DNA of 64,000 nucleotides. Origin: Flaccisagitta enflata. Taxonomy: Eukaryota. This document shows, piece after piece, positions 15,730 to 24,302 of the stretch. Where the stretch lies: assembly GCA_965153355.1 (NCBI GenBank), contig OZ231126.1, positions 32,426,001 through 32,490,000 on the forward strand, read 5' to 3'. Made by a program: the position numbers and the translations under genes. Numbering within the stretch: the stretch's first letter is position 1; each line of letters begins with the position of its first letter. Below the pieces are notes generated by a model. The model ran no database searches. It saw only the letters and a list, made by a program, of their open reading frames with translations, and was not told the DNA's origin.

Positions 15730-17698
15730 AGTAGAGTGACTACTCAGGGTGCCGCCTGTGGCCCCTATAATAAATGTCATTGAGATGCCGGTTGTTGACG
15801 ATTTTGGCGATCTCAGATTCGCTGAGATTGTCTGAGGGAGAGGATTTTGGTCGCCATTACTCACAACCAACAGAGAACAATATGATACATGCAAGTTAAA
15901 TACATTCGATATGCCTCAACCAACTTCGTCCAATTTCCACGTCAGTATTTTGATATCAATTTCTAAATTCATGTATGACAAAATGAAAGAGCTTGTACAG
16001 CAAATATTGTGTAAAAGGGCAAATTCATGTGGGAGGGAGTGGGAGGTAGTCAGGATGCAAAAGGGCTAAGGCGATGAGGCAAAATCTGCTCGAGTATCTC
16101 GAAACAGCCGATCCTTTCGTACCTATCATGGCCATTCTTTCGCCCATTGGCGTTACCCGAAGAATCAACTCAATTCAAAATCAGAGGGCAATTCTCATCC
16201 GCGCCGCGCTGACAGCTGTAGCCTCCCGTGAATGTCTGGACGCCACGGAAACAACAGTACCCACTCCGCAGCACAGTTCCTTGCTGAACAAAGGGGTAAA
16301 AATGCTGTGGCAATAGTGCCACTCGAAGTCACATCACGCTACACCTCACAATGTCACGCCAAAACACGCCACCAGCGCTACGCCGCCACATGCCACGCCA
16401 ATCCAAGTCACGCCAACAGAATCACGCCAATCCAAGCCACGCCAGCAGCATCACGCCAACAGGGGCGCCCGTCCGTTGAGGTGGAAAAGTCGTCCTTGCG
16501 CTGAAGGTAGAATCAATTCCACCTCCTCAGTCTGGTTTTTAGCCCCATTTCGAAAAAAGGGTAATCTCTCTTTTTCAATCTCTTTCTTTCTGTCTATCAC
16601 CGTTTCTATCTGTTAGTTTGTTTTACTGTCTCTCAATCTGGGATTCAGCTAGTTTTGACATAAAACTGTTTTCTTGACTGTGTCTCCGAGATATTCCGTG
16701 GCGTTCTACTTTAGCGTATTAAACCGCCAAAAATCGTTTCAAAAATACAAAAAAATGGATTATTGTGACAAAAATTATGAATTTTTGTCACAAAAATGCT
16801 GGAAAAGTCCATTTTGAAACGGGCGTTCTTATGCAGTTTCAAAACGATCTTATATTGTCGTTTCAAAACCACAAGTATGCGCAACTTTTGAAACGAATAT
16901 TGAGGCATAGTTGACATATCAAAACTTAGCAATTCTAAAGTTCTAAAACCATGAGATTTTTGCGTTTCAAAACGCTTGAAAACAGCGCTAAAGTAACGGC
17001 CAGCAAGGGAAAAAATCTATTCATCTTTGTAATCTTATCACCTTTTTTACCGTTTTGAAAACACAAAAAATTAAAGTATTGAAACTGAAAAAAAATGTGT
17101 TTAAAAATTGAAATATGGTTATATGCTAGCTGACTTTACCCAAACTGACTGGCTTATACGCACGCCACTCTTGGTTTTCCATAACACTGAAACTGAAAGA
17201 CATCCTTTTGGGCAGCAGCTCCGAAGGGGTTGATGACCTATGCTTTTACACATGGGGAGTTTTCTCCTCAAATTACAGTCTTGAGGCCCAAATTTTAGCC
17301 TGAAGGCCCAAATCCTTGCCTGGAGGCCCAGATCCCCGCCTTGAAGCCCAAATCTTAGCCTCGAGGTCCCAATCCCACCCAAGAGACCCAGATCCCAACC
17401 TCAAAACTCTGAAAGAGGCTTAGTCTGTCTGTCCTCCATCGGTTCATCCATTATGCTTGAGTTAAAAGTGCAAAAATGCACATTCTTAAATGAAATTGCA
17501 GTTGTGATAATCTCTTTGTGTGTTTGTGCCAAAAAGGTTACTTTTTACAGTTTTGAAACTGCAAAAAAATTGAAGTTTTGAAACTGCAAAAAAATGAAGT
17601 TTTGAAACTGCAAAAAAATGAAGTTTTGAAACTGCAAAAAAATGAAGTTTTGGAACTGCAAAAAATTGAAGTTCTGAAACCGCAAGAAATTGAAGCTA

Positions 17699-17805
17699 AG
17701 AAATACGGAGTTTCTCATAGAGAAAGAATCGAGATACGCGTCGCGTCACTTGTAAACAGAGTTACGAACACAGGCTCATATTCATTCAGCGTACTTATGT
17801 CTAAC
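17699..17805 (+). repeat. Split direct repeat A1 (left terminus)
   Basis: 107 bp, identical to 18839-18945 except one base (17759 g vs 18899 a). Confidence 0.97.
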
Positions 17806-17883
17806 CCGATAGCACGCAAAATTTCCAGTCCAAGAAAAACTCGATTTCAGTTAAACAGAAATTCGATCTCGCAAACACTCGTC

Positions 17884-19180
17884 ATGAGTGGCAAAGAAAC
17901 CGATGCAAATAAAAGGAAAGCGGGTAACTCGTCAAAGGACGAGGATGAGCCGGACTGGAGAGAAGAAATGCGTGCTGAGTTAAAGTCGTGCATCGCTTCC
18001 GCGCTAAATACGAGCGTCTCCGCGGCCGTCAATACTGCGGTGGAGGCGGCTATGGCTAGGCAGCCGTTCAATCTCCCTTTGGGCCCGTCGGAGATTGATG
18101 CTGAAGACGTCGTGGATAAGGAATCTTCCGAATCGATGGCGGACCTGATGAAGAAAATCGATGCCGGCAATCGTTCGAATAAAATAGCAATTCGCTTGGC
18201 GGCTATCTCCAAAGAGGGAAACAAGCAGCATTTCATGGACATGATTGAGATTAAAGAGAAACTGGAATGCGCCGAAGCCGCTCTCAAGGAGAGTACTGTA
18301 GATTTATACAAAAAAAAAAAAAAAAAAAAAAAGTTTAAGCTTAAGCTTATGCGAGTTTGTACAGGTTTGTGTGAGCTCACGTAGGAGCGCGTGATTGAAC
18401 AATCTTTTCTACTAGGATCCGCGGTTTTTGGAGGACGTTGACCTTGCTCGGGAGGCCGTCGCCGACTCAATGAAACTCGTGGAAGCGCGGATGTCCATGA
18501 TTGAACGCATCGACAAACATCCTCTGAGCTGGCCAGTCGCCACCGAGTATCAGAAGCTGAAACGCGCACGATCCGATGACTCGGAAGACGACAAAATTTT
18601 CGCGGCCGCGGAAAAGAAAGTGAAAGACGAACGGAAGGCCAAAAACGATGAAGCCAAATCAAAGACTCAGACGAAACAGAGAATCACGTTTCAGTCTCGT
18701 CAGTCATTTGGAGGGTCGGGTAATGTTAATCGGTACTTGTTATAGTCCGCATCATTTTGTTTGCTTTGTTGGTTCAGGTACGCTGCTACTATGAAATGAG
18801 ATTCTTGATTCATGAGAAACTACGGTTTCTAGCGAGCGAGAAATACGGAGTTTCTCATAGAGAAAGAATCGAGATACGCGTCGCGTCACTTGTAAACAAA
18901 GTTACGAACACAGGCTCATATTCATTCAGCGTACTTATGTCTAACAATAACCCACCCACCCACCCCAGGCATCTCTCAGCGGCCCTTTCCCAGTCAGGTA
19001 CTCGCAACTGACCAATGCTCGTACTGCGGACTCACCGGTCATTGGAAAAAGCAATGCTACCGCTTCAATAACGACATGCGCGGTCGGGGACAGAGGTCTC
19101 TCGGACAATCGAAATTTGCCGCCACCGGCTCCAGCAAAGACACCGCTCTTACGCAGAACGCAACAGCATACACGCAATGA
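17884..19180 (+). CDS. gag: Gag-like protein with C-terminal CCHC zinc knuckle; predicted exons 17884-18297, 18416-18719, 18969-19180
   Basis: MSGKETDANKRK...ALKEST | DPRFLEDVDL...QSFGGSG | ISQRPFPSQVLATDQCSYCGLTGHWKKQC...AYTQ*. CX2CX4HX4C starts at 19016 and is not in the ORF track. The joins restore frame. The first donor (GTAGAT) is weak. Confidence 0.75.
18778..18945 (+). repeat. Internal B1-A2 junction (copy of the circle junction)
   Basis: B1 18778-18843 matches 23253-23318 with one mismatch. A2 18839-18945 matches A1. They overlap at AGAAA. Confidence 0.97.
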
Positions 19181-21986
19181 GACAGATGTCTCTACTAAAG
19201 CCCGAGCCTCAGAGAAGGAGAGGGTGCGAACAAAATATGATGACATATTTCAAGTAAGTGACAGTTGTCACAAATTCGGCTCTTATGACATTGATAATGT
19301 CAGCGATGATTTTTCAGTGGCAGGCAGACTATCGAATCCCAAATATATCAGTTTTTTTGAAGAAATAGGTGCCTCAGAGGTGATTTTAGACACTTTGAAA
19401 CACGGTCACAAGCCAATTCTAACATCAGATGTGCCAAGTTATGAGAGAGAGAATAACAACTCATTTAAAGAACACTGCGAGTTTGGCGTAAACACCATTC
19501 TAAAGCTTATAAAAGACAAAAAAGTTGAAATTGTATCCAAAAAGCCTAAAATTGTCAATCCTCTGTCCGTTGCTGTCCAACCAACAAAATTACGGCTAAT
19601 TCTGGACTGTAGTTTCCTCAACAAATTCATAGCAGCTCCGACTTTCAAAATGGATGACCACAAAACTGCCCTCTCTTTCTTTGATCTTGACGGCTATCTC
19701 TTCTCTTTTGACATGAAAGACGGATACCATCATCTGTTAATTCACCCTGACTTTCGCGATTACCTTGGTTTCAAATTTAAGCTCAACGGACGGACCTACT
19801 ATGCTCGCTATCTCGTCGCGCCCTTTGGTCTGTGCGATGTCCCATACACATTTACAAAAATTCTCCGCCCCCTTGTGGCACACTGGAGGAGGTTAGGAAT
19901 CAAGATCTGTCTCTTTCTGGATGACGGTTTTTCTTCTTCCCGAGACAAAGCAAAAGCTCAAAGAGACAGTGTTCATGTCAGACAAGACTTGATGAGAGCG
20001 GGAATAGTCTGGAATGTAAAAAAGTCTAATTGGGAGCCAACTAAATCCCTTGAGTGGGTCGGCTTTTACTGGGACACAACTGACGGATCAATGAAAATCA
20101 AAGGCAGAAGAGTCGAAAAACTAAAACTTTTTCTGTCTGAGATGTCCGCACTCAAATCATGCACAGCTCGCAAATTAGCAGCGCTAGTCGGTCAAATCAT
20201 CTCCATGATGCCAGTAATTGGTGACGTGGCAAGGCTAAAAACAAGAAATTGTCAAATTGCCGTGGCCTTAGCAAATGACTGGGACGAGACTGTGTTACTA
20301 AACAATGGGATAAAGACCGAGATTCTCTTTTGGCAGCAGAATATTGACAGACTGAATATCTACTACTGTTTTCAATCGGACGGACCTGTCGTCTTTGATC
20401 TGATCGAAGGTGATGCTTCAGCGTCAGGTTGCGGTAGCATTCTAAATGACAGCATGATTGCGGCACAGTGTTTTAACGCTCTTGAAAGGGCTCAAAGCTC
20501 AGCATACAGAGAGATATCCAATATTCATTTTTCCCTTGTGTCATTCCTTGCCAACATAAAGGGTAGATCGGTGACAGTCAAAACTGATAGTCAAGCCGCG
20601 GCAAAGATTTGCAAAATTGGCAGCATGAATCCCCTTCTGCAGCATTTTGCTGAAAGCATATTTGAGCTGTGTTTTAAGAATAATATTAATCTCACTGTAG
20701 ACTGGGTCCCACGCAATGAGAACCAAAAGGCAGATTTGATATCCAGATTGGCTGACAGGGTTGATGTAGACGACTGGCAAATCTCCCAAGAATTTTTCAA
20801 AATTCTCAATGAGAAATGGGGCCCCTTTTCTATTGATTTATTCGCCAATCACTATAACGCAAAATGCGAAAAATTTTATTCTCTCTTTTTCTCTCCTCTA
20901 AGTCATGGGGTGGACGCATTTGCTCATAGTTGGGTTGGGGAAGTCGCCCTCATGGTTCCCCCTATCTCTCTCATCCCACGGGCCCTGTCACAGCAGCTGG
21001 TTATCCTATAATTCTTACGATCCTAGATTTGTGGCTTAGAAGGGTTACAATTGTAGGTTTTCAAGACTCTTTTACAATGGGAAAATGGGTTTTTCCTTCA
21101 TAACCCATAAAGTGCTAAATCGATTTTTTTTTATTTCTTGGGTCAATATCAATAATGAGACTACTTACCTTTGCCAAAAGAAATTGTCATCGCCACTCTT
21201 CTATAAATGGGTGGAATATGATGATGAAAGTGGCCTTCTACAATGCTTACGATTCTAGGTTTTTTTGCTTAGAAAGCTTACGATTCTAGAAACTTGCATG
21301 GAAAGCTTATGATTATAGGTCTTCTGTGATTCATTACCCACAGGTTAGTTCATGGATTAGTAGGCCCTAATTTCAGAGACAGAAATACTTGTGTGCATGG
21401 CATCAGGCTTTTTCACAATATTGCTCCTAGAATTGTAAGCTTTCTATGCAAGTTTCTAGAATTGTAAGCTTTCTAAGAAAGAAAACCTAGAATTGTAAGC
21501 ATTGTAGAAAGCCACTTTCATCATCATATTTCACCTATATATAGAAAAGTGGCGATGACAATTTCTTATGGCAAAGGTAAGTAGTCTCATTGTTAATATT
21601 GACCCAAGAAATGAAAAAAATCGATTTAGCACTTTTTGGGTTATGAAGGAAAGACCCATTTTCCCATTGTAAACAAGTCTAGAAAACCTACAATCGTAAC
21701 CGTTCTAACCCACAAATCTAGGATCGTAAGAATTATAGGATAACCGGCTGCACAGGCCAAGCTTTGTGGAATAAATTGCACTCTGGTCATTCCCCTCTGG
21801 ACCTCATCCTGTTTCTGGCCAGTCATTCTCAACGATTACACCTCATTTATCTCAGATCTCCTGAGAGTGAAAGGTTCTAAAGTTCTCCTCCATGGTAGAA
21901 ATACTAATAGCATTTTTGGTTCAGGCAGCTTTCAAGGGGAAATTCTAGCAATTAATTTTGATTTCACTGGATCCACTCACAGATAA
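18969..21986 (+). pseudogene. pol: pol: reverse transcriptase + RNase H + DAM-type methyltransferase-like domain, interrupted by a MITE at 20994-21750
   Basis: RT motifs LRLILDC, SFDMKDGYHH, APFGL, FLDDG; RNase H GDASASG, SSAYRE, KTDS, NQKADLISR; MT-like IDLFA..N.K, DAFAHSW, VPP. Removing the MITE restores RALSQ|AKLCGINCTLVIPLWTSSCFWP...THR* (stop 21984-21986). Confidence 0.92.
20994..21750. mobile_element. MITE with ~325-bp TIRs inserted in pol
   Basis: cagctggttatcctataattcttacgatcctag...ctaggatcgtaagaattataggataaccggctg; CACAG duplicated at 20989-20993 and 21751-21755. Confidence 0.95.
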
Positions 21987-22963
21987 TTCGTGAGCAAGAC
22001 TTTTGGAAAACGCAGCCTCAGAGTTACTCTTGCGTTATTGATGACATTTGGGAGTCGCTACAGCCTAGTACAACCGAAAAGTATTGTATATGCATGAGAA
22101 ATTTTTGCTCTTTCAGTTTAATCAATTCAGGTGAGATCACTTTGCCTATTGACACAGATAATGCATCCAAATTTCTGGTTTTCCTAAGGGAGCGCGGCTA
22201 CTCAAAATTCTACATAAAGCTAGGCTTGGTCGCCCTGAAGTGGGCCAATTCATTTTTTCCCAGAGCTTAATCCCTTAATGAGCCATTTCTTGACAGAATC
22301 ATTGCCAGTGCTAATCGCAATATTATCTCGTCAAAAAACCAAAAGGTCCCTCTAACCAAGTCAATGGTAGCTTCCATTCTTAATCTCAAGAATAATGCAA
22401 GTCTTAGCGAAGTTAGAGACTCTCTTATCCCAGCTCTGAGCTTCTCCCTCTTGCTTCGTAATGACGAATTAAGACACTTGTCATGTGCTCACATTGAAAA
22501 AAGAGAGGAGGGGATGATTTTCCGAATTGTATCGTCAAAGACAGATGTCTTCAGAAAAGGGAAAAGTCTGTATCTGGCAGATTCTAACGACTCAAAATCT
22601 CTTGTCTCGCTCCTCCTCAAATACATGTCACTAGGGGAGATTCCCCTGGGATCAAACAATTTTCTCTTTGGTGAAATAAGGAAAAATTCATCTAATGATA
22701 AAGAGTATGTAGACGGCACTTCTAAATTATCCTATAGCCAGTGCCTATCAATAATCAGATCCAAGGTCGCGTTATTAGGCCTAAACTCAAACTTGTTTGG
22801 TACTCATTCTGCCAGATCGGGCGGCGCGACGACGCTTGCCACGAAGGTCACGCCATTCGAGCTGATGCTCAGTGGGCGTTGGGCAGATGCCCGTTCACTA
22901 CGGAACTACGTTGAAGTTTCGGACAAAAGAAGATTTGAAATTTCTGAAAATCTTCTGAGCTAG
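21962..22963 (+). pseudogene. Tyrosine recombinase (YR) with one premature TAA at 22268-22270
   Basis: Frame open from 21962 (..SLQPSTTEKY..F..F..) apart from one stop; catalytic set LLRNDE (R), SSKTD (K), THSARSGGAT (H-x-x-R), GRW, RNYV (Y). Confidence 0.92.
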
Positions 22964-23245
22964 GTATCTTGAAAAGATACGCTGATTTGAGTCTGACAAT
23001 CGTTTTCGGTCACAATTGGTTCAGATACACACTTAATTTTCATTTTCCTCTCACAGTCGTGTTCATTTGTTTATGTTCCTTGGTGGATCCGAAGAGTTCT
23101 CATCTTGTCGTCCTATGAAGATGTCAAGTCGGATGCTTTGTAGACCTGGTGGAGCTCTAAAGATCACCCTTTAACTAGAAAGATATCCTTTCCATTTTGT
23201 CATGAAAAATGAAAAATGCTCCTAACCCGTTGCGGTCATAGACAC

Positions 23246-23251
23246 AATAAA
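23246..23251 (+). promoter_or_regulatory. Putative polyadenylation signal of the retrotransposon
   Basis: AATAAA immediately upstream of B2. Confidence 0.5.
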
Positions 23252-23252
23252 C

Positions 23253-23318
23253 GTACGCTGCTACTATGAAATGAGATTCTTGATTCATGAGAAACTACGG
23301 TTTCTAGCGAGTGAGAAA
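23253..23318 (+). repeat. Split direct repeat B2 (right terminus)
   Basis: gtacgctgctactatgaaatgagattc...tttctagcgagtgagaaa; 66 bp, one mismatch to B1. Confidence 0.97.
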
Positions 23319-23604
23319 CGGCTATTTCATATTTCATAATTTCATTGCCACTTTTTCCCAGTTCCAAAACAGTAAAAACTAGCTGGCTTGAAGTGAGAAA
23401 AAAATGATATTTTAGACAAAAGCCCTTTTTATGCAGTTTTGATACACCCAAAAAAAGCCGTTTTAAGACGGCAAGTATGCCTGCGTCTTGAAACTCCAGA
23501 TAACTGCCACTAAAGGACATTGTTGTATGCATAAATGGTTTTTTGGCCGTTCTGAAACTGTTGCATACTAGAAGTTTTGAGACGTCGTTCCCCTATTTGG
23601 GACA
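23319..23604. mobile_element. AT-rich repeat hosting the retrotransposon (right part; left part ~17530-17698)
   Basis: Reverse complement of ~63580-63950 resembles both flanks (ttttacagtt..gaaactgcaaaaaaa on the left, ...gacgtcgttcccctatttgggac on the right). Confidence 0.65.
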
Positions 23605-23796
23605 AAAACGCAATAAGAACGCCGACGAAATACCTGGTGTCTCCCACATCATCATTTTGTCTATCTGTCCGTCTGTTGTAAGTTAGCTGCATTGTTTTTC
23701 TGTTTTTGTGGGTTGTTTTTTTCTTTTTTTTTTGATCCGTTTAATTCTTCGATTATTTCTCAATTGTATGTTGGCTCGTCTGTTTGTTAAGTTATA

Positions 23797-23860
<64 letters not shown>

Positions 23861-24302
23861 TGGGGAGGTCCACTCATACTTTCAAGCAGAAATTTGACAG
23901 GAAAGTTCTTTTTTTTTTCTAATCACAACCTAATTAATTCTCGGACTCAACTTCCTTTATTTCTTTCTTTTCCAAATTCTGCTATTCTTTCTGTTCTCTT
24001 CCTTTCTTCATCCTCTTTCTTTCCAGCTTTCTCTTCTTTCCTCGTTATTCTTTCTTTTTTATCACCTTTTTTTTTCTCCTTTCTTTCCCCTCCTTACCCA
24101 CTTTTGACTGACTTTTCCTTTTTTTTTTCCATTCCATTTTCCCAAGGAACTGGGCAAAATCATGCCTTGCAGTGAAGCTACCATATTGCCAATTTAGAAA
24201 TAGCTACAAAATCTCTCAAAGGACTGTAGGCCTTAAAGGCAGGCACGCCTAAAAGTCAGGTGCGCTCTAGTGGTGTTCTACTGTAATTTTTTTCACTGGT
24301 CA

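What the first reader, a model, noticed from the sequence alone, without database searches (positions are those of the whole stretch)
18298..21982. Phase-matched splice sites could produce Gag, Pol and YR from one start codon
Seen: pol has no ATG before the RT domain, and its frame opens at 18951, just before the 18968 acceptor (phase 0 for pol, phase 1 for gag). YR has no early ATG, and its frame opens at 21962, just before cactcacag|ATA (21982, phase 0). A consensus CAA|GTAAGT donor lies at 19254 in phase 0 of the pol frame. The gag exon-1 donor at 18298 is phase 0. Inference: E1+E2+E3 gives Gag, skipping E2 gives GagN-Pol, and also removing 19254-21982 gives a YR fusion (…DDIFQ|IIREQDFW…). 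Frameshifting or reinitiation at the ATGA overlapping the gag stop (19177-19180) are alternatives.
Basis: inference. Interest (0 to 1): 0.75.

Follow-up and report, generated by a model that had tools for sequence, protein, structure and literature searches.

The report
Intron-split gag of a PAT-like retrotransposon
This is a damaged copy of a tyrosine-recombinase (PAT-like) retrotransposon whose capsid gene seems to be cut by two introns, one holding the element's internal replication repeat; the proposed alternative splicing that would also make Pol and the recombinase from the same start codon fits the arithmetic but is unproven.

Summary
Window 17699-23318 (+) is one decayed PAT-like (DIRS-order) retrotransposon with split direct repeats A1...B1A2...B2. 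It carries a foldback insertion in pol and an in-frame TAA in the recombinase (YR).

One exception: the ATG at 19177 is not in the pol frame.

Relatives support the gag part.
- Block 18298-18415 is a GT-AG intervening sequence. It is present in 11 and precisely absent in 10 related Gag proteins, and the absent forms nest among the present ones.
- Block 18720-18968 holds the whole B1A2 repeat. It starts at a conserved Gly codon (G|GT) and ends at a branch-point-like motif, a pyrimidine tract and AG. The same layout is seen in two related DNA loci.

The CCHC knuckle block behind it has no ATG of its own, so full Gag probably needs splicing.

Exon skipping for Gag-Pol and a 2.7-kb splice for a YR fusion rest only on phase coincidence. 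The long gag/pol overlap is not beyond chance. A 45% relative has an ATG for YR at the pol stop. No junction-bearing RNA was found.

The parts
17699..23318 (+). Whole PAT-like tyrosine-recombinase retrotransposon (5620 bp including a 759-bp foreign foldback insertion); single copy in the window
   Evidence: Split direct repeats. Self-BLAST finds no second copy in the 64 kb. Contigs of runs X2/X3 start to match at 17701 with a different flank, which marks the left end.
17699..17805 (+). Terminal repeat A1 (107 nt); its last 9 nt are ATG TCT AAC, the likely Gag start codon at 17797
   Evidence: 99% identical to 18839-18945. The ATG is in frame with gag. The N-termini of P0110-P0113, P0115, P0116 and P0118 begin with MS and are aligned here by eye only; P0109 instead reads through repeat A from upstream.
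   Evidence: phmmer found 28 related proteins, best P0109 at 83% identity, E 2e-63.
18298..18415 (+). Intervening sequence 1, 118 nt, GTAGAT...ttttctactag, phase 0, contains an A23 run; GC 0.32 against 0.49 and 0.53 in the flanking blocks
   Evidence: Eleven relatives break off here and 10 are contiguous. The tree forces at least 2 changes of state.
18416..18719 (+). gag block E2 (304 nt; conserved HPLSWPVATE[YF]QKLKRA core)
18720..18968 (+). Intervening sequence 2, 249 nt, G|GTAATG ... tctaac-(22 nt C-rich)-cag|G, phase 1; holds the whole internal repeat B1A2; stops in all three frames
   Evidence: The Gly at the donor is present in 10 of 10 sequences that reach it, and the next residue always has a purine-initial codon. 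Acceptor-like sites in L001 and L002 lie in the same phase.
18778..18843 (+). Internal repeat B1 (66 nt), copy of B2
   Evidence: 98% identical to 23253-23318.
18839..18945 (+). Internal repeat A2 (107 nt), copy of A1, overlapping B1 by AGAAA; carries a second copy of the ATG TCT AAC (18937)
18969..19180 (+). gag block E3: CCHC zinc knuckle (CSYCGLTGHWKKQC) and gag stop TGA at 19178-19180; no ATG upstream of the knuckle in this frame
   Evidence: Pfam zf-CCHC scores 17.4 bits, below the cut-off of 20.8, but the pattern is complete. P0134 is 91% identical. Frame checked.
18951..20992 (+). pol frame, first part: conserved N-terminal segment (ETDVS...KYDDIFQVSDSC), RT, RNase H-like region, start of the Dam-like methyltransferase; +1 relative to the knuckle frame; no Met before residue 234
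   Evidence: Pfam RVT_1 2.5e-12, Dam 2e-6, RVT_3 0.002. 104 homologues..
19254..19259 (+). GTAAGT at codons Val-Ser of the conserved motif; candidate 5' splice site, phase 0 of pol
   Evidence: Same hexamer at the same motif in L002; GTAACT in L001. P(GTA AGT | Val Ser) is 0.024 in the window and 0.049 in L002 from their own codon usage.
20993..21751 (.). Foldback (MITE-like) insertion of 759 bp inside the methyltransferase domain, flanked by a 3-nt duplication (ACA)
   Evidence: Inverted arms of 138 nt (93%) and 195 nt (91%). P0018, 97% identical, reads straight through this point. Flanks. Other copies appear in contigs of run X1.
21752..21986 (+). pol frame, last part (end of methyltransferase domain), stop TAA at 21984-21986
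21962..22963 (+). Tyrosine recombinase frame (-1 relative to pol, 25-nt overlap), broken by an in-frame TAA at 22268-22270; candidate acceptor cag|ATA at 21982|21983
   Evidence: Matches Cre recombinase chains, E 1.3e-5, residues 39-218. 40.6% identical to the L001 YR, which hits Pfam Phage_integrase at 9.7e-8..
23253..23318 (+). Terminal repeat B2

Best explanation
The stretch is the 5' half of a decayed PAT-like (Pat1-like, DIRS-order) retrotransposon at 17699-23318. It has split direct repeats A1 ... B1A2 ... B2.

Its gag gene starts at an ATG carried by the last 9 nt of repeat A (17797). Two GT-AG intervening sequences cut it.
- The first (18298-18415) is a lineage-specific spliceosomal-type intron.
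- The second (18720-18968) contains the entire internal repeat B1A2. It separates the Gag body from its CCHC zinc knuckle.

Inferred consequence: full-length Gag can only be made from RNA that has lost B1A2. RNA that keeps B1A2 is the only form able to serve as template for replication. Splicing therefore sorts transcripts into messenger and genome.

Pol (RT, RNase H-like region, methyltransferase) lies +1 to the knuckle frame and has no ATG, so it must be made as a fusion. I think a +1 shift of frame on the spliced gag mRNA is the most likely route (about 35%). It would also work in the relatives that lack intron 1.

YR is most likely translated from an AUG at or near the pol stop in intact relatives. 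This copy has none.

Shown: the anatomy, the phases and the pattern in relatives. Inferred: that the introns are actually spliced, and every statement about Pol and YR expression.
For: Anatomy
- Split repeats.
- Domains RVT_1 and Dam, and the CCHC pattern.
- YR resembles Cre.

Intron 1
- Its removal joins frames 1 and 2 without a gap against contiguous relatives.
- Of 28 sequences read (27 of the 28 hits, plus P0106): 11 break off exactly here, 10 are contiguous, 1 is ambiguous, 5 end earlier, 1 is unrelated.
- 8 of the 11 interrupted ones read Val (GTN) as the first residue of the read-through.
- In the tree of 22 rows, contiguous P0105 and P0129 nest inside a 99/95 clade with interrupted P0112, P0119 and P0128. 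At least 2 state changes are forced.
- This is the pattern expected if spliced RNA is sometimes reverse transcribed, or if those two are themselves spliced cDNA.

Intron 2
- The Gly whose codon is G|GT is present in 10 of 10 sequences that reach it. All ORFs stop 3-37 residues later.
- The next residue is N, N, T, E, K, S, R, K, K or E. Any codon for these starts with a purine, except the TCN codons of Ser, so intron position +3 would be a purine in 9 of 10 for certain. K or E (5 of 10) would spell GT[AG]AG.
- The 3' end has tctaac, a C-rich tract and cag|G.
- L001 and L002 have a pyrimidine tract plus AG in the same phase just upstream of their knuckles, 3 of 3 DNA sequences.
- P0134 (91% identical) differs from the window by 4 nt just upstream of the AG and by no indel in the 69 codons after it.
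- The knuckle frame has no ATG before the knuckle in the window, L001 and L002.
- GC drops in both gaps.

Background
- DIRS-1 cannot retrotranspose without its internal complementary region, and its RT acts in trans (PMC7192593, passages read).
Against: - No spliced RNA was seen. The one poly(A) RNA run of the likely source study gave 3 partial reads of a 90-95% relative, with 6% of the run read. Metatranscriptome contigs cover only 17701-18284 and the foldback.
- No database protein joins E2 to E3. This holds for 0 of 4, 0 of 27 fetched, and the single E3 hit P0134, which is an unspliced read-through.
- Both gag donors are weak matches to the consensus (GTAGAT, GTAATG).
- In P0134 the ATG carried by repeat A2 is in frame with the knuckle ORF. 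That would allow a separate small knuckle protein without splicing.
- Only two related DNA loci could be read, and neither contains gag.
- It is unknown whether the database proteins come from DNA or cDNA.
- No conserved +1 shift site was found.
Confidence: 0.5

Rival explanations
1. One start codon gives three products by phase-matched alternative splicing: E1+E2+E3 gives Gag, E1+E3 (E2 skipped) gives GagN-Pol, and additional removal of 19254-21982 gives a GagN-PolN-YR fusion.
For: - All phases fit.
- Pol has no ATG before RT in the window or in L001.
- The pol frame opens 18 nt before the acceptor.
- The E1 donor is phase 0 in the window, and Val follows directly in 8 of 11 interrupted relatives.
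- GTAAGT sits at the same Val-Ser codons in the window and in L002, against 2-5% expected from codon usage.
- L001 has ...ttttgcag|TTT in phase 0 of its YR frame.
Against: - No junction was seen in RNA.
- No fusion protein was seen among the fetched database hits.
- Ten relatives lack intron 1, so they cannot skip E2.
- The phase match is a 1-in-3 event.
- The long open overlap is expected by chance in 0.37-0.53 of shuffles.
- L001 reads GTAACT at the donor place and has ATGs at the head of its YR frame, one overlapping the pol stop.
- The residue after the conserved Val varies widely in the more distant clade.
Confidence: 0.15
2. There is no second intron. The internal B1A2 unit acts like a complete LTR-like unit. 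It starts a subgenomic RNA, or allows internal initiation. The copy of the Gag start codon at the end of A2 (18937) then opens a second cistron: a small knuckle protein, with Pol following by a +1 shift. The Gag body ends naturally a few codons after 18719.
For: - A2 carries the same ATG TCT AAC as A1.
- In P0134 this ATG is in frame with the knuckle ORF.
- In P0016 a similar MSH...PPSQ...GPF start is in frame with pol.
- All 9 contiguous Gag relatives that reach the end of E2 stop soon after the conserved Gly.
Against: - In the window the A2 ATG is in the third frame and gives only 24 codons.
- In L001 the only upstream ATG, whose homology to the repeat-A start is not shown, gives a 7-codon ORF, and the knuckle frame has no ATG.
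- The window and P0134 differ by a 4-nt indel between the ATG and the AG. This suggests that stretch is not coding.
- The donor-like pattern after the Gly is unexplained.
- The frame of the A2 ATG differs among the three cases, as expected for chance.
Confidence: 0.15
3. Pure decay. The apparent exons are pieces of a once-continuous gag broken by insertions and frameshifts in this dead copy, and the splice-like sites are coincidence.
For: The copy is damaged elsewhere: a foldback insertion at 20993-21751, a TAA in YR, and a 4-nt length difference in the C-tract.
Against: - The same break after E1 is seen in 11 relatives down to about 50% identity.
- The same stop after the conserved Gly is seen in 9 relatives.
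- The knuckle lies behind a pyrimidine tract plus AG in L001 and L002 as well.
- B1A2 is a defining part of the element, not an insertion.
Confidence: 0.05

Closest known systems
Pat1-like elements of the PAT group, DIRS order (Pat1 of Panagrellus redivivus; 'echinoderm-form' SpPat1)
   Same: - Gag, RT, RNase H, methyltransferase and tyrosine recombinase, all in one orientation.
- Split direct repeats A1-B1-A2-B2.
- A zinc finger in Gag.
- These are the features listed for Pat1-like elements in PMC4157794 (passages read).
   Different: - Here the internal repeat lies inside gag, between the Gag body and the zinc knuckle, within a GT-AG bounded block.
- The passages I read place the internal repeat of the nematode form between MT and YR. 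They say only that the echinoderm form differs in placement; the figure is not held.
- None of the passages I read mentions introns or splicing.
- Phylogenetic placement against reference Pat1 sequences was not done.
DIRS-1 of Dictyostelium
   Same: - A tyrosine-recombinase retrotransposon with RT, RNase H and MT.
- An internal region that matches the termini and is needed for retrotransposition; RT acts in trans (PMC7192593, passages read).
- Overlapping ORFs (PMC3266345, passages read).
   Different: DIRS-1 has inverted terminal repeats and an internal complementary region near the 3' end. It has no split direct repeats. No natural intron is described in the passages read.
Splicing-regulated LTR retroelements (Drosophila copia, barley BARE, Arabidopsis Ty1/Copia, legume Ogre) and retroviral subgenomic mRNAs
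   Same: Splicing separates an RNA pool for translation from the unspliced RNA that is packaged and copied, and it sets the ratio of the products. BARE and the Arabidopsis Copia work were seen as titles and abstracts in the listing. Ogre appeared there only as a search term, and copia and the retroviral case are recalled.
   Different: - In those elements splicing removes pol (or an intron between gag-pro and RT) to raise Gag.
- Here splicing would be needed to complete Gag itself.
- It would also remove a cis-acting replication repeat, so spliced RNA could never be copied into a new element.
Ty1/Ty3-type or antizyme-type programmed +1 ribosomal frameshifting
   Same: Pol is in the +1 frame with a long overlap and no start codon, in the window, L001 and L002.
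   Different: No conserved shift site was found. The codon before the gag stop is not conserved among relatives, as judged from pol-frame residues. In L001 the knuckle frame stops 64 nt before the conserved pol motif.

Membership tests
DIRS order, PAT / Pat1-like retrotransposon | Reverse transcriptase domain | tested here: met
   Pfam RVT_1, E 2.5e-12, 47.4 bits against a cut-off of 29.6.
DIRS order, PAT / Pat1-like retrotransposon | RNase H domain after RT | tested here: inconclusive
   Pfam RVT_3 scores 18.5 bits, below the cut-off of 21.6. The region is conserved in all 14 aligned homologues.
DIRS order, PAT / Pat1-like retrotransposon | Dam-like methyltransferase domain (separates DIRS/PAT from Ngaro and VIPER) | tested here: met
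   Pfam Dam scores 28.1 bits, equal to the cut-off of 28.1, E 2e-6. The domain is split by the foldback insertion. P0018 shows the undisturbed form.
DIRS order, PAT / Pat1-like retrotransposon | Tyrosine recombinase instead of integrase | tested here: met
   - The window's own YR gives 0 Pfam families.
- It matches Cre recombinase chains at E 1.3e-5 over residues 39-218.
- It is 40.6% identical to the L001 YR, which passes Pfam Phage_integrase at 32.4 bits against 27.1.
- No integrase family was found in any ORF.
DIRS order, PAT / Pat1-like retrotransposon | Split direct repeats A1-B1-A2-B2 (not inverted repeats plus ICR) | tested here: met
   A1 17699-17805 equals A2 18839-18945 (99%). B1 18778-18843 equals B2 23253-23318 (98%). 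No terminal inverted repeats.
DIRS order, PAT / Pat1-like retrotransposon | Zinc finger in Gag (Pat1-like within PAT) | tested here: inconclusive
   A complete CX2CX4HX4C is present at about 19016-19057. Pfam zf-CCHC scores 17.4 bits, below 20.8. It counts as part of Gag only if the 249-nt block is spliced out.
DIRS order, PAT / Pat1-like retrotransposon | Clusters with reference Pat1 / SpPat1 in an RT tree | not tested
All close homologues are unnamed metagenome proteins.
Spliceosomal GT-AG intron (block 18298-18415) | GT...AG ends; removal restores frame and colinearity with intron-less homologues | tested here: met
   Ten contiguous relatives align across the joint without a gap of more than 3 residues.
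Spliceosomal GT-AG intron (block 18298-18415) | Precise presence/absence among close relatives | tested here: met
   11 interrupted against 10 contiguous. Contiguous rows are nested in an interrupted clade, and at least 2 changes are forced by starred branches.
Spliceosomal GT-AG intron (both blocks) | Spliced RNA observed | tested here: inconclusive
   No joint appeared in 4 runs, but coverage of the region was nil or partial.
Spliceosomal GT-AG intron (block 18720-18968) | Conserved 5' and 3' splice-site features in relatives | tested here: met
   - The Gly (G|GT) is present in 10 of 10.
- The next residue's codon starts with a purine in 9 of 10 for certain (Ser is ambiguous); K or E, which would spell GT[AG]AG, occurs in 5 of 10.
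- A pyrimidine tract plus AG lies in the same phase in 3 of 3 DNA sequences.
- No homologue with E2 and E3 joined is known, so colinearity could not be tested.
Programmed +1 ribosomal frameshift between gag and pol | pol in +1 frame, overlapping gag, no start codon | tested here: met
   Window, L001 and L002.
Programmed +1 ribosomal frameshift between gag and pol | Conserved shift site | tested here: not met
   No shared motif was found in the overlap of the window, L001 and L002. The position of the gag stop relative to the conserved pol motif differs in L001.

The most novel reading that the evidence does not exclude
A tyrosine-recombinase retrotransposon keeps its indispensable internal replication repeat inside an intron of gag. 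It uses phase-matched alternative splicing from a single start codon, itself carried by the terminal repeat, to make Gag, a GagN-Pol fusion and a recombinase fusion. Every spliced RNA would then be a dead-end messenger, and only unspliced RNA could be copied.
Probability: 0.15. Interest if true: 0.8.

Novelty: new variant of a known kind. Interest (0 to 1): 0.5.

Why it matters
How DIRS-order elements express Pol and the recombinase from start-less, overlapping frames is poorly understood. Retrotransposons should also lose introns each time a spliced RNA is copied.

An element that keeps introns in gag, one of which cannot be lost because it holds the internal repeat needed for replication, would be a clean natural case of splicing acting as the switch between messenger and genome RNA. 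It would explain why one intron comes and goes among relatives while the other is always there.

It also matters for annotation. Such elements look 'broken' to ORF-based tools although the interruption may be functional.

Tried and rejected
- **Whole genome.** None is held for this window, so other copies in the same genome could not be compared. The window holds only this copy.
- **RNA.** The run search gave 5 runs, and 4 were laid.
  - No joints appeared.
  - X5 (poly(A) RNA, about 6% read) gave 3 partial reads of a 90-95% relative.
  - X1-X3 cover only 17701-18284, plus the foldback in X1.
  - This says nothing for or against splicing.
- **Related DNA.**
  - Metagenome contigs gave 15 loci. 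Only L001 (45%) and L002 (49%) are close, and neither contains gag.
  - Viral contigs and genome contigs gave none.
  - L003-L015 hold no gag homologue by tblastn.
- **Rfam** on 17000-24000: no family.
- **Earlier findings of this scan:** nothing by place, words or sequence.
- **'ATGA' reinitiation:** rejected, wrong frame.
- **Long gag/pol overlap as evidence that the pol frame is entered at the acceptor:** rejected. Codon shuffles leave it open in 0.37-0.53 of trials, a joint probability of about 0.1.
- **-1 frameshift from pol into YR:** no slippery heptamer is seen by eye in the 25-nt overlap.
- **+1 shift exactly at the gag stop.**
  - It was attractive because the conserved pol segment begins with the codon after the stop, and many relatives have x-E, x-D or x-K there, compatible with TGA or TAA.
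  - But the preceding codon is not conserved, and L001 stops 64 nt earlier.
- **Short Met-started pol N-termini of P0006/P0007** read as the A2-borne start: rejected on alignment. They match the Pro-rich stretch just before the conserved motif, not the C-tract.
- **Papers.**
  - Seven searches and passages of four papers were read.
  - None describes introns or splicing in PAT-like or DIRS gag.
  - The founding papers on Pat1, SpPat1 and Kangaroo are not in the searchable library, and figures and supplements could not be seen. Absence from print is therefore not shown.

Full report
**What is there**

The finding lies in one retroelement, window 17699-23318 on the + strand.
- Repeat analysis shows split direct repeats. 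A 107-nt unit at 17699-17805 recurs at 18839-18945 (99%). A 66-nt unit at 18778-18843 recurs at 23253-23318 (98%). The two internal units abut with a 5-nt overlap.
- The order is therefore A1 ... B1A2 ... B2, the hallmark of PAT-like members of the DIRS order (PMC4157794 and PMC6681497, passages read).
- The long frame 18951-21011 carries RVT_1 (E 2.5e-12), a weak RNase H-like match and a Dam-like methyltransferase match at threshold.
- The last frame (22271-22963) matches Cre recombinase chains at E 1.3e-5. It is 40.6% identical to the recombinase of the related locus L001, which passes Pfam Phage_integrase.
- A CCHC knuckle sits at about 19016-19057.
- Contigs of two marine runs begin to match exactly at 17701 with a different flank, which fixes the left end.

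The copy is dead.
- A 759-bp foldback insertion (20993-21751) splits the methyltransferase domain. A 97%-identical relative, P0018, reads straight through.
- The recombinase frame has an in-frame TAA at 22268-22270.
- The window holds no second copy, and no genome is held for it.

**The observation**

Every coordinate and phase under 'seen' is right.
- The pol frame opens at 18951 and has no Met before residue 234.
- The YR frame opens at 21962, with its first ATG at 22094.
- The exon ends and starts are at 18297|18298 (phase 0), 18415|18416, 18719|18720 (phase 1), 18968|18969 (phase 1 for the knuckle frame, phase 0 for pol), 19253|19254 (phase 0) and 21982|21983 (phase 0 for YR).
- The suggested ATGA at 19177 is in the third frame, which stops at 19255-19257, so that alternative falls.
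- I add one point. The last 9 nt of repeat A are ATG TCT AAC. In A1 this ATG (17797) is in frame with gag. Seven relatives' Gag proteins begin with MS and align there by eye, although the closest relative, P0109, reads through repeat A from upstream. The real Gag start is therefore probably 17797, not 17884.

**The first gap in gag (18298-18415)**

I collected Gag relatives in two ways. One was a full HMMER scan with E1: 28 hits, of which I read 27; P0117, a 4341-residue repeat protein, was left out. The other was a word-indexed search with E2 for longer proteins: 4 hits, all read.

Of the 28 sequences read:
- 11 break off exactly at the window's E1 end, with short unrelated tails
- 10 run on colinearly into E2
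- 1 is ambiguous
- 5 end earlier
- 1 is unrelated

In 8 of the 11 interrupted ones the first read-through residue is Val (GTN), as in the window (ACT|GTA).

A maximum-likelihood tree of the E1 region (22 rows) gives two clades.
- One clade holds 7 contiguous sequences.
- The sister clade (support 96/97) holds 12 interrupted sequences, including the window, and 3 contiguous ones.
- Two of those contiguous ones (P0105, P0129) sit inside a 99/95 sub-clade with interrupted P0112, P0119 and P0128.
- Starred branches force at least two changes of state.

Precise, repeated disappearance of a 118-nt GT-AG block from a retroelement is what reverse transcription of spliced RNA produces. If the contiguous records are cDNA, they are the spliced RNA itself. 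Either way the block behaves as a real intron. Its GC content is 0.32, against 0.49 and 0.53 in the flanking blocks.

**The second gap (18720-18968)**

This block contains all of B1A2 and has stops in all three frames.
- In an alignment of the window's E2 with the ten contiguous relatives, nine of which reach the end of E2, the Gly whose codon is G|GT is present in all 10 sequences that reach it. Every ORF ends 3-37 residues later.
- The residue after the Gly is N, N, T, E, K, S, R, K, K or E. Any codon for these starts with a purine, except the TCN codons of Ser, so intron position +3 would be a purine in at least 9 of 10. Five (K or E) would spell GTAAG or GTGAG. This is inferred from the code, because I have no DNA for these relatives.
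- At the 3' end the window has tctaac (branch-point-like; the last 6 nt of repeat A), 22 nt of C-rich sequence and cag|G.
- The two related DNA loci show ttcttctcccccccttcttcag|A (L002) and ccctcccatctccggaag|G (L001) just upstream of their knuckles. The exon start is in the same phase in 3 of 3.
- P0134, 91% identical over the knuckle block, is an unspliced read-through of B1A2. It differs from the window by 4 nt (one CCCA unit) immediately upstream of the AG, and by no indel in the 69 codons behind it.
- The knuckle frame has no ATG ahead of the knuckle in the window, L001 or L002.

Together this makes E2-E3 splicing the simplest way to obtain the zinc-finger Gag that defines Pat1-like elements. 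It is not shown. No protein in the databases joins E2 to E3, and no RNA joint was found.

**Consequence (inferred)**

DIRS-1 needs its internal complementary region for retrotransposition, and its RT acts in trans (PMC7192593, passages). By analogy, an RNA that has lost B1A2 can be translated but not copied.

That would explain the asymmetry among relatives. Intron 1 comes and goes. The B1A2 block is never missing: 0 of 10 sequences that reach it lack it.

**Pol**

Pol is +1 to the knuckle frame in the window, L001 and L002. It has no ATG before RT in the window or in L001. The Met starts that gene callers chose in 36 of the 40 top-ranked pol homologues I tabulated (44 of the 104 hits were fetched in all) are scattered and not conserved within the window's clade. 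So a fusion is needed.

- Once the gag intron phases and the +1 relation are given, it needs only that the E1 donor be phase 0, a 1-in-3 event.
- The 'frame opens just before the acceptor' argument is weak. Codon shuffles keep the +1 frame open over the whole knuckle block in 0.37, 0.49 and 0.53 of trials.
- The ten intron-1-less relatives could not use it.

A +1 ribosomal shift on the spliced mRNA would work for all relatives, but I found no conserved shift site. An alternative acceptor at 18993|18994 (ccctttcccag|TC) would also put the phase-1 donor into the pol frame. Such candidates are expected by chance about every 50 nt.

I rank the routes as follows: +1 shift about 35%, exon skipping about 20%, alternative 3' site about 15%, other about 30%.

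**YR**

The YR frame is -1 to pol with a 25-nt overlap and no slippery site.

- GTAAGT sits on the conserved Val-Ser codons in both the window and L002. The expected chance from their own codon usage is 0.024 and 0.049.
- L001 has ttttgcag|TTT in phase 0 of its YR frame.

Against it:
- L001 reads GTAACT at the donor place.
- L001 has two ATGs at the head of its YR frame, one overlapping the pol stop (TAATG). Its SAM-like N-terminal domain starts after them.
- The residue after the Val is variable in the more distant clade.
- The fusion would carry an odd 95-residue pol leader.

**Rival: second start codon in A2**

Repeat A2 duplicates the Gag start codon.
- In P0134 it is in frame with the knuckle ORF.
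- In P0016 a similar start is in frame with pol.
- In the window it is in neither frame.
- In L001 the upstream ATG gives a 7-codon ORF.

The frame thus varies as chance would have it, and the stretch between the ATG and the AG carries a 4-nt indel between near relatives. I give this rival about 15%.

**Comparison with what is known, and novelty**

The element passes the tests for a PAT/Pat1-like member of the DIRS order, except that I could not place it in a tree with reference sequences.

Splicing that balances Gag against Pol, or messenger against genome RNA, is described for BARE and Arabidopsis Copia elements (titles and abstracts seen in the listing). Ogre was only a search term there, and copia and retroviruses are recalled. 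In seven searches and the passages I read I found no report of introns in gag of a PAT-like or DIRS element, nor of the internal repeat lying within one.

I class it as a new variant of a known kind, of moderate interest. The intron-split gag is fairly well supported. The three-products-from-one-ATG scheme remains a neat but unproven idea.

Noticed in passing
window 20993-21751: A 759-bp foldback (MITE-like) element with nested inverted arms of 138 nt (93%) and 195 nt (91%), flanked by a 3-nt duplication (ACA). It is inserted in the methyltransferase domain of pol. Diverged copies in other contexts appear in contigs of marine metatranscriptome run X1.
   Followed up: partly
window 17540-17703: A 24-nt tandem repeat (about 7 units, AAAAAAATGAAGTTTTGAAACTGC-like) abuts the left end of the element and decays into it. 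A related inverted stretch lies at 16810-16874. Another copy of the element (runs X2/X3) has a different flank, so the array is not part of the element.
   Followed up: partly
window 18310-18332: An uninterrupted A23 run lies 12 nt into the first gag intron. The 83%-identical relative P0109 reads V-K-K-K-V-stop at the same place, so an A-run at the intron start is shared. Contigs of run X1 end at 18284, just before it.
   Followed up: no
window 17797-17805 and 18937-18945: The terminal repeat A ends with ATG TCT AAC. The Gag start codon is therefore duplicated inside the element. The same 6 last letters double as a branch-point-like motif 22 nt upstream of the 18968 acceptor.
   Followed up: partly
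window 19179-19330 (pol frame): A strongly conserved segment of unknown function lies upstream of RT (ETDVS...R.KF.DIF.VSDSC..FG..DIEN..DDFSVAGRL). Several columns are invariant across 14 homologues down to 43% identity. It has no Pfam match.
   Followed up: no
proteins P0024, P0027-P0030, P0033: A more distant clade of pol homologues (48-50% identity) shares a conserved Met-started N-terminus (MATAIGEGIRDAL-like). Those elements seem to have their own pol start codon, unlike the window's clade.
   Followed up: no
L001 1-95: The related metagenome contig starts with about 9 tandem copies of a 10-nt unit (TTTTCCCTCA), just upstream of its knuckle block.
   Followed up: no
whole window: The 64 kb is extremely rich in microsatellites and low-complexity arrays ((TC)n, (AC)n, (CAG)n, AAG-rich and 24-45-nt tandem units). 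No other convincing protein-coding ORF of at least 170 codons lies outside the element.
   Followed up: no
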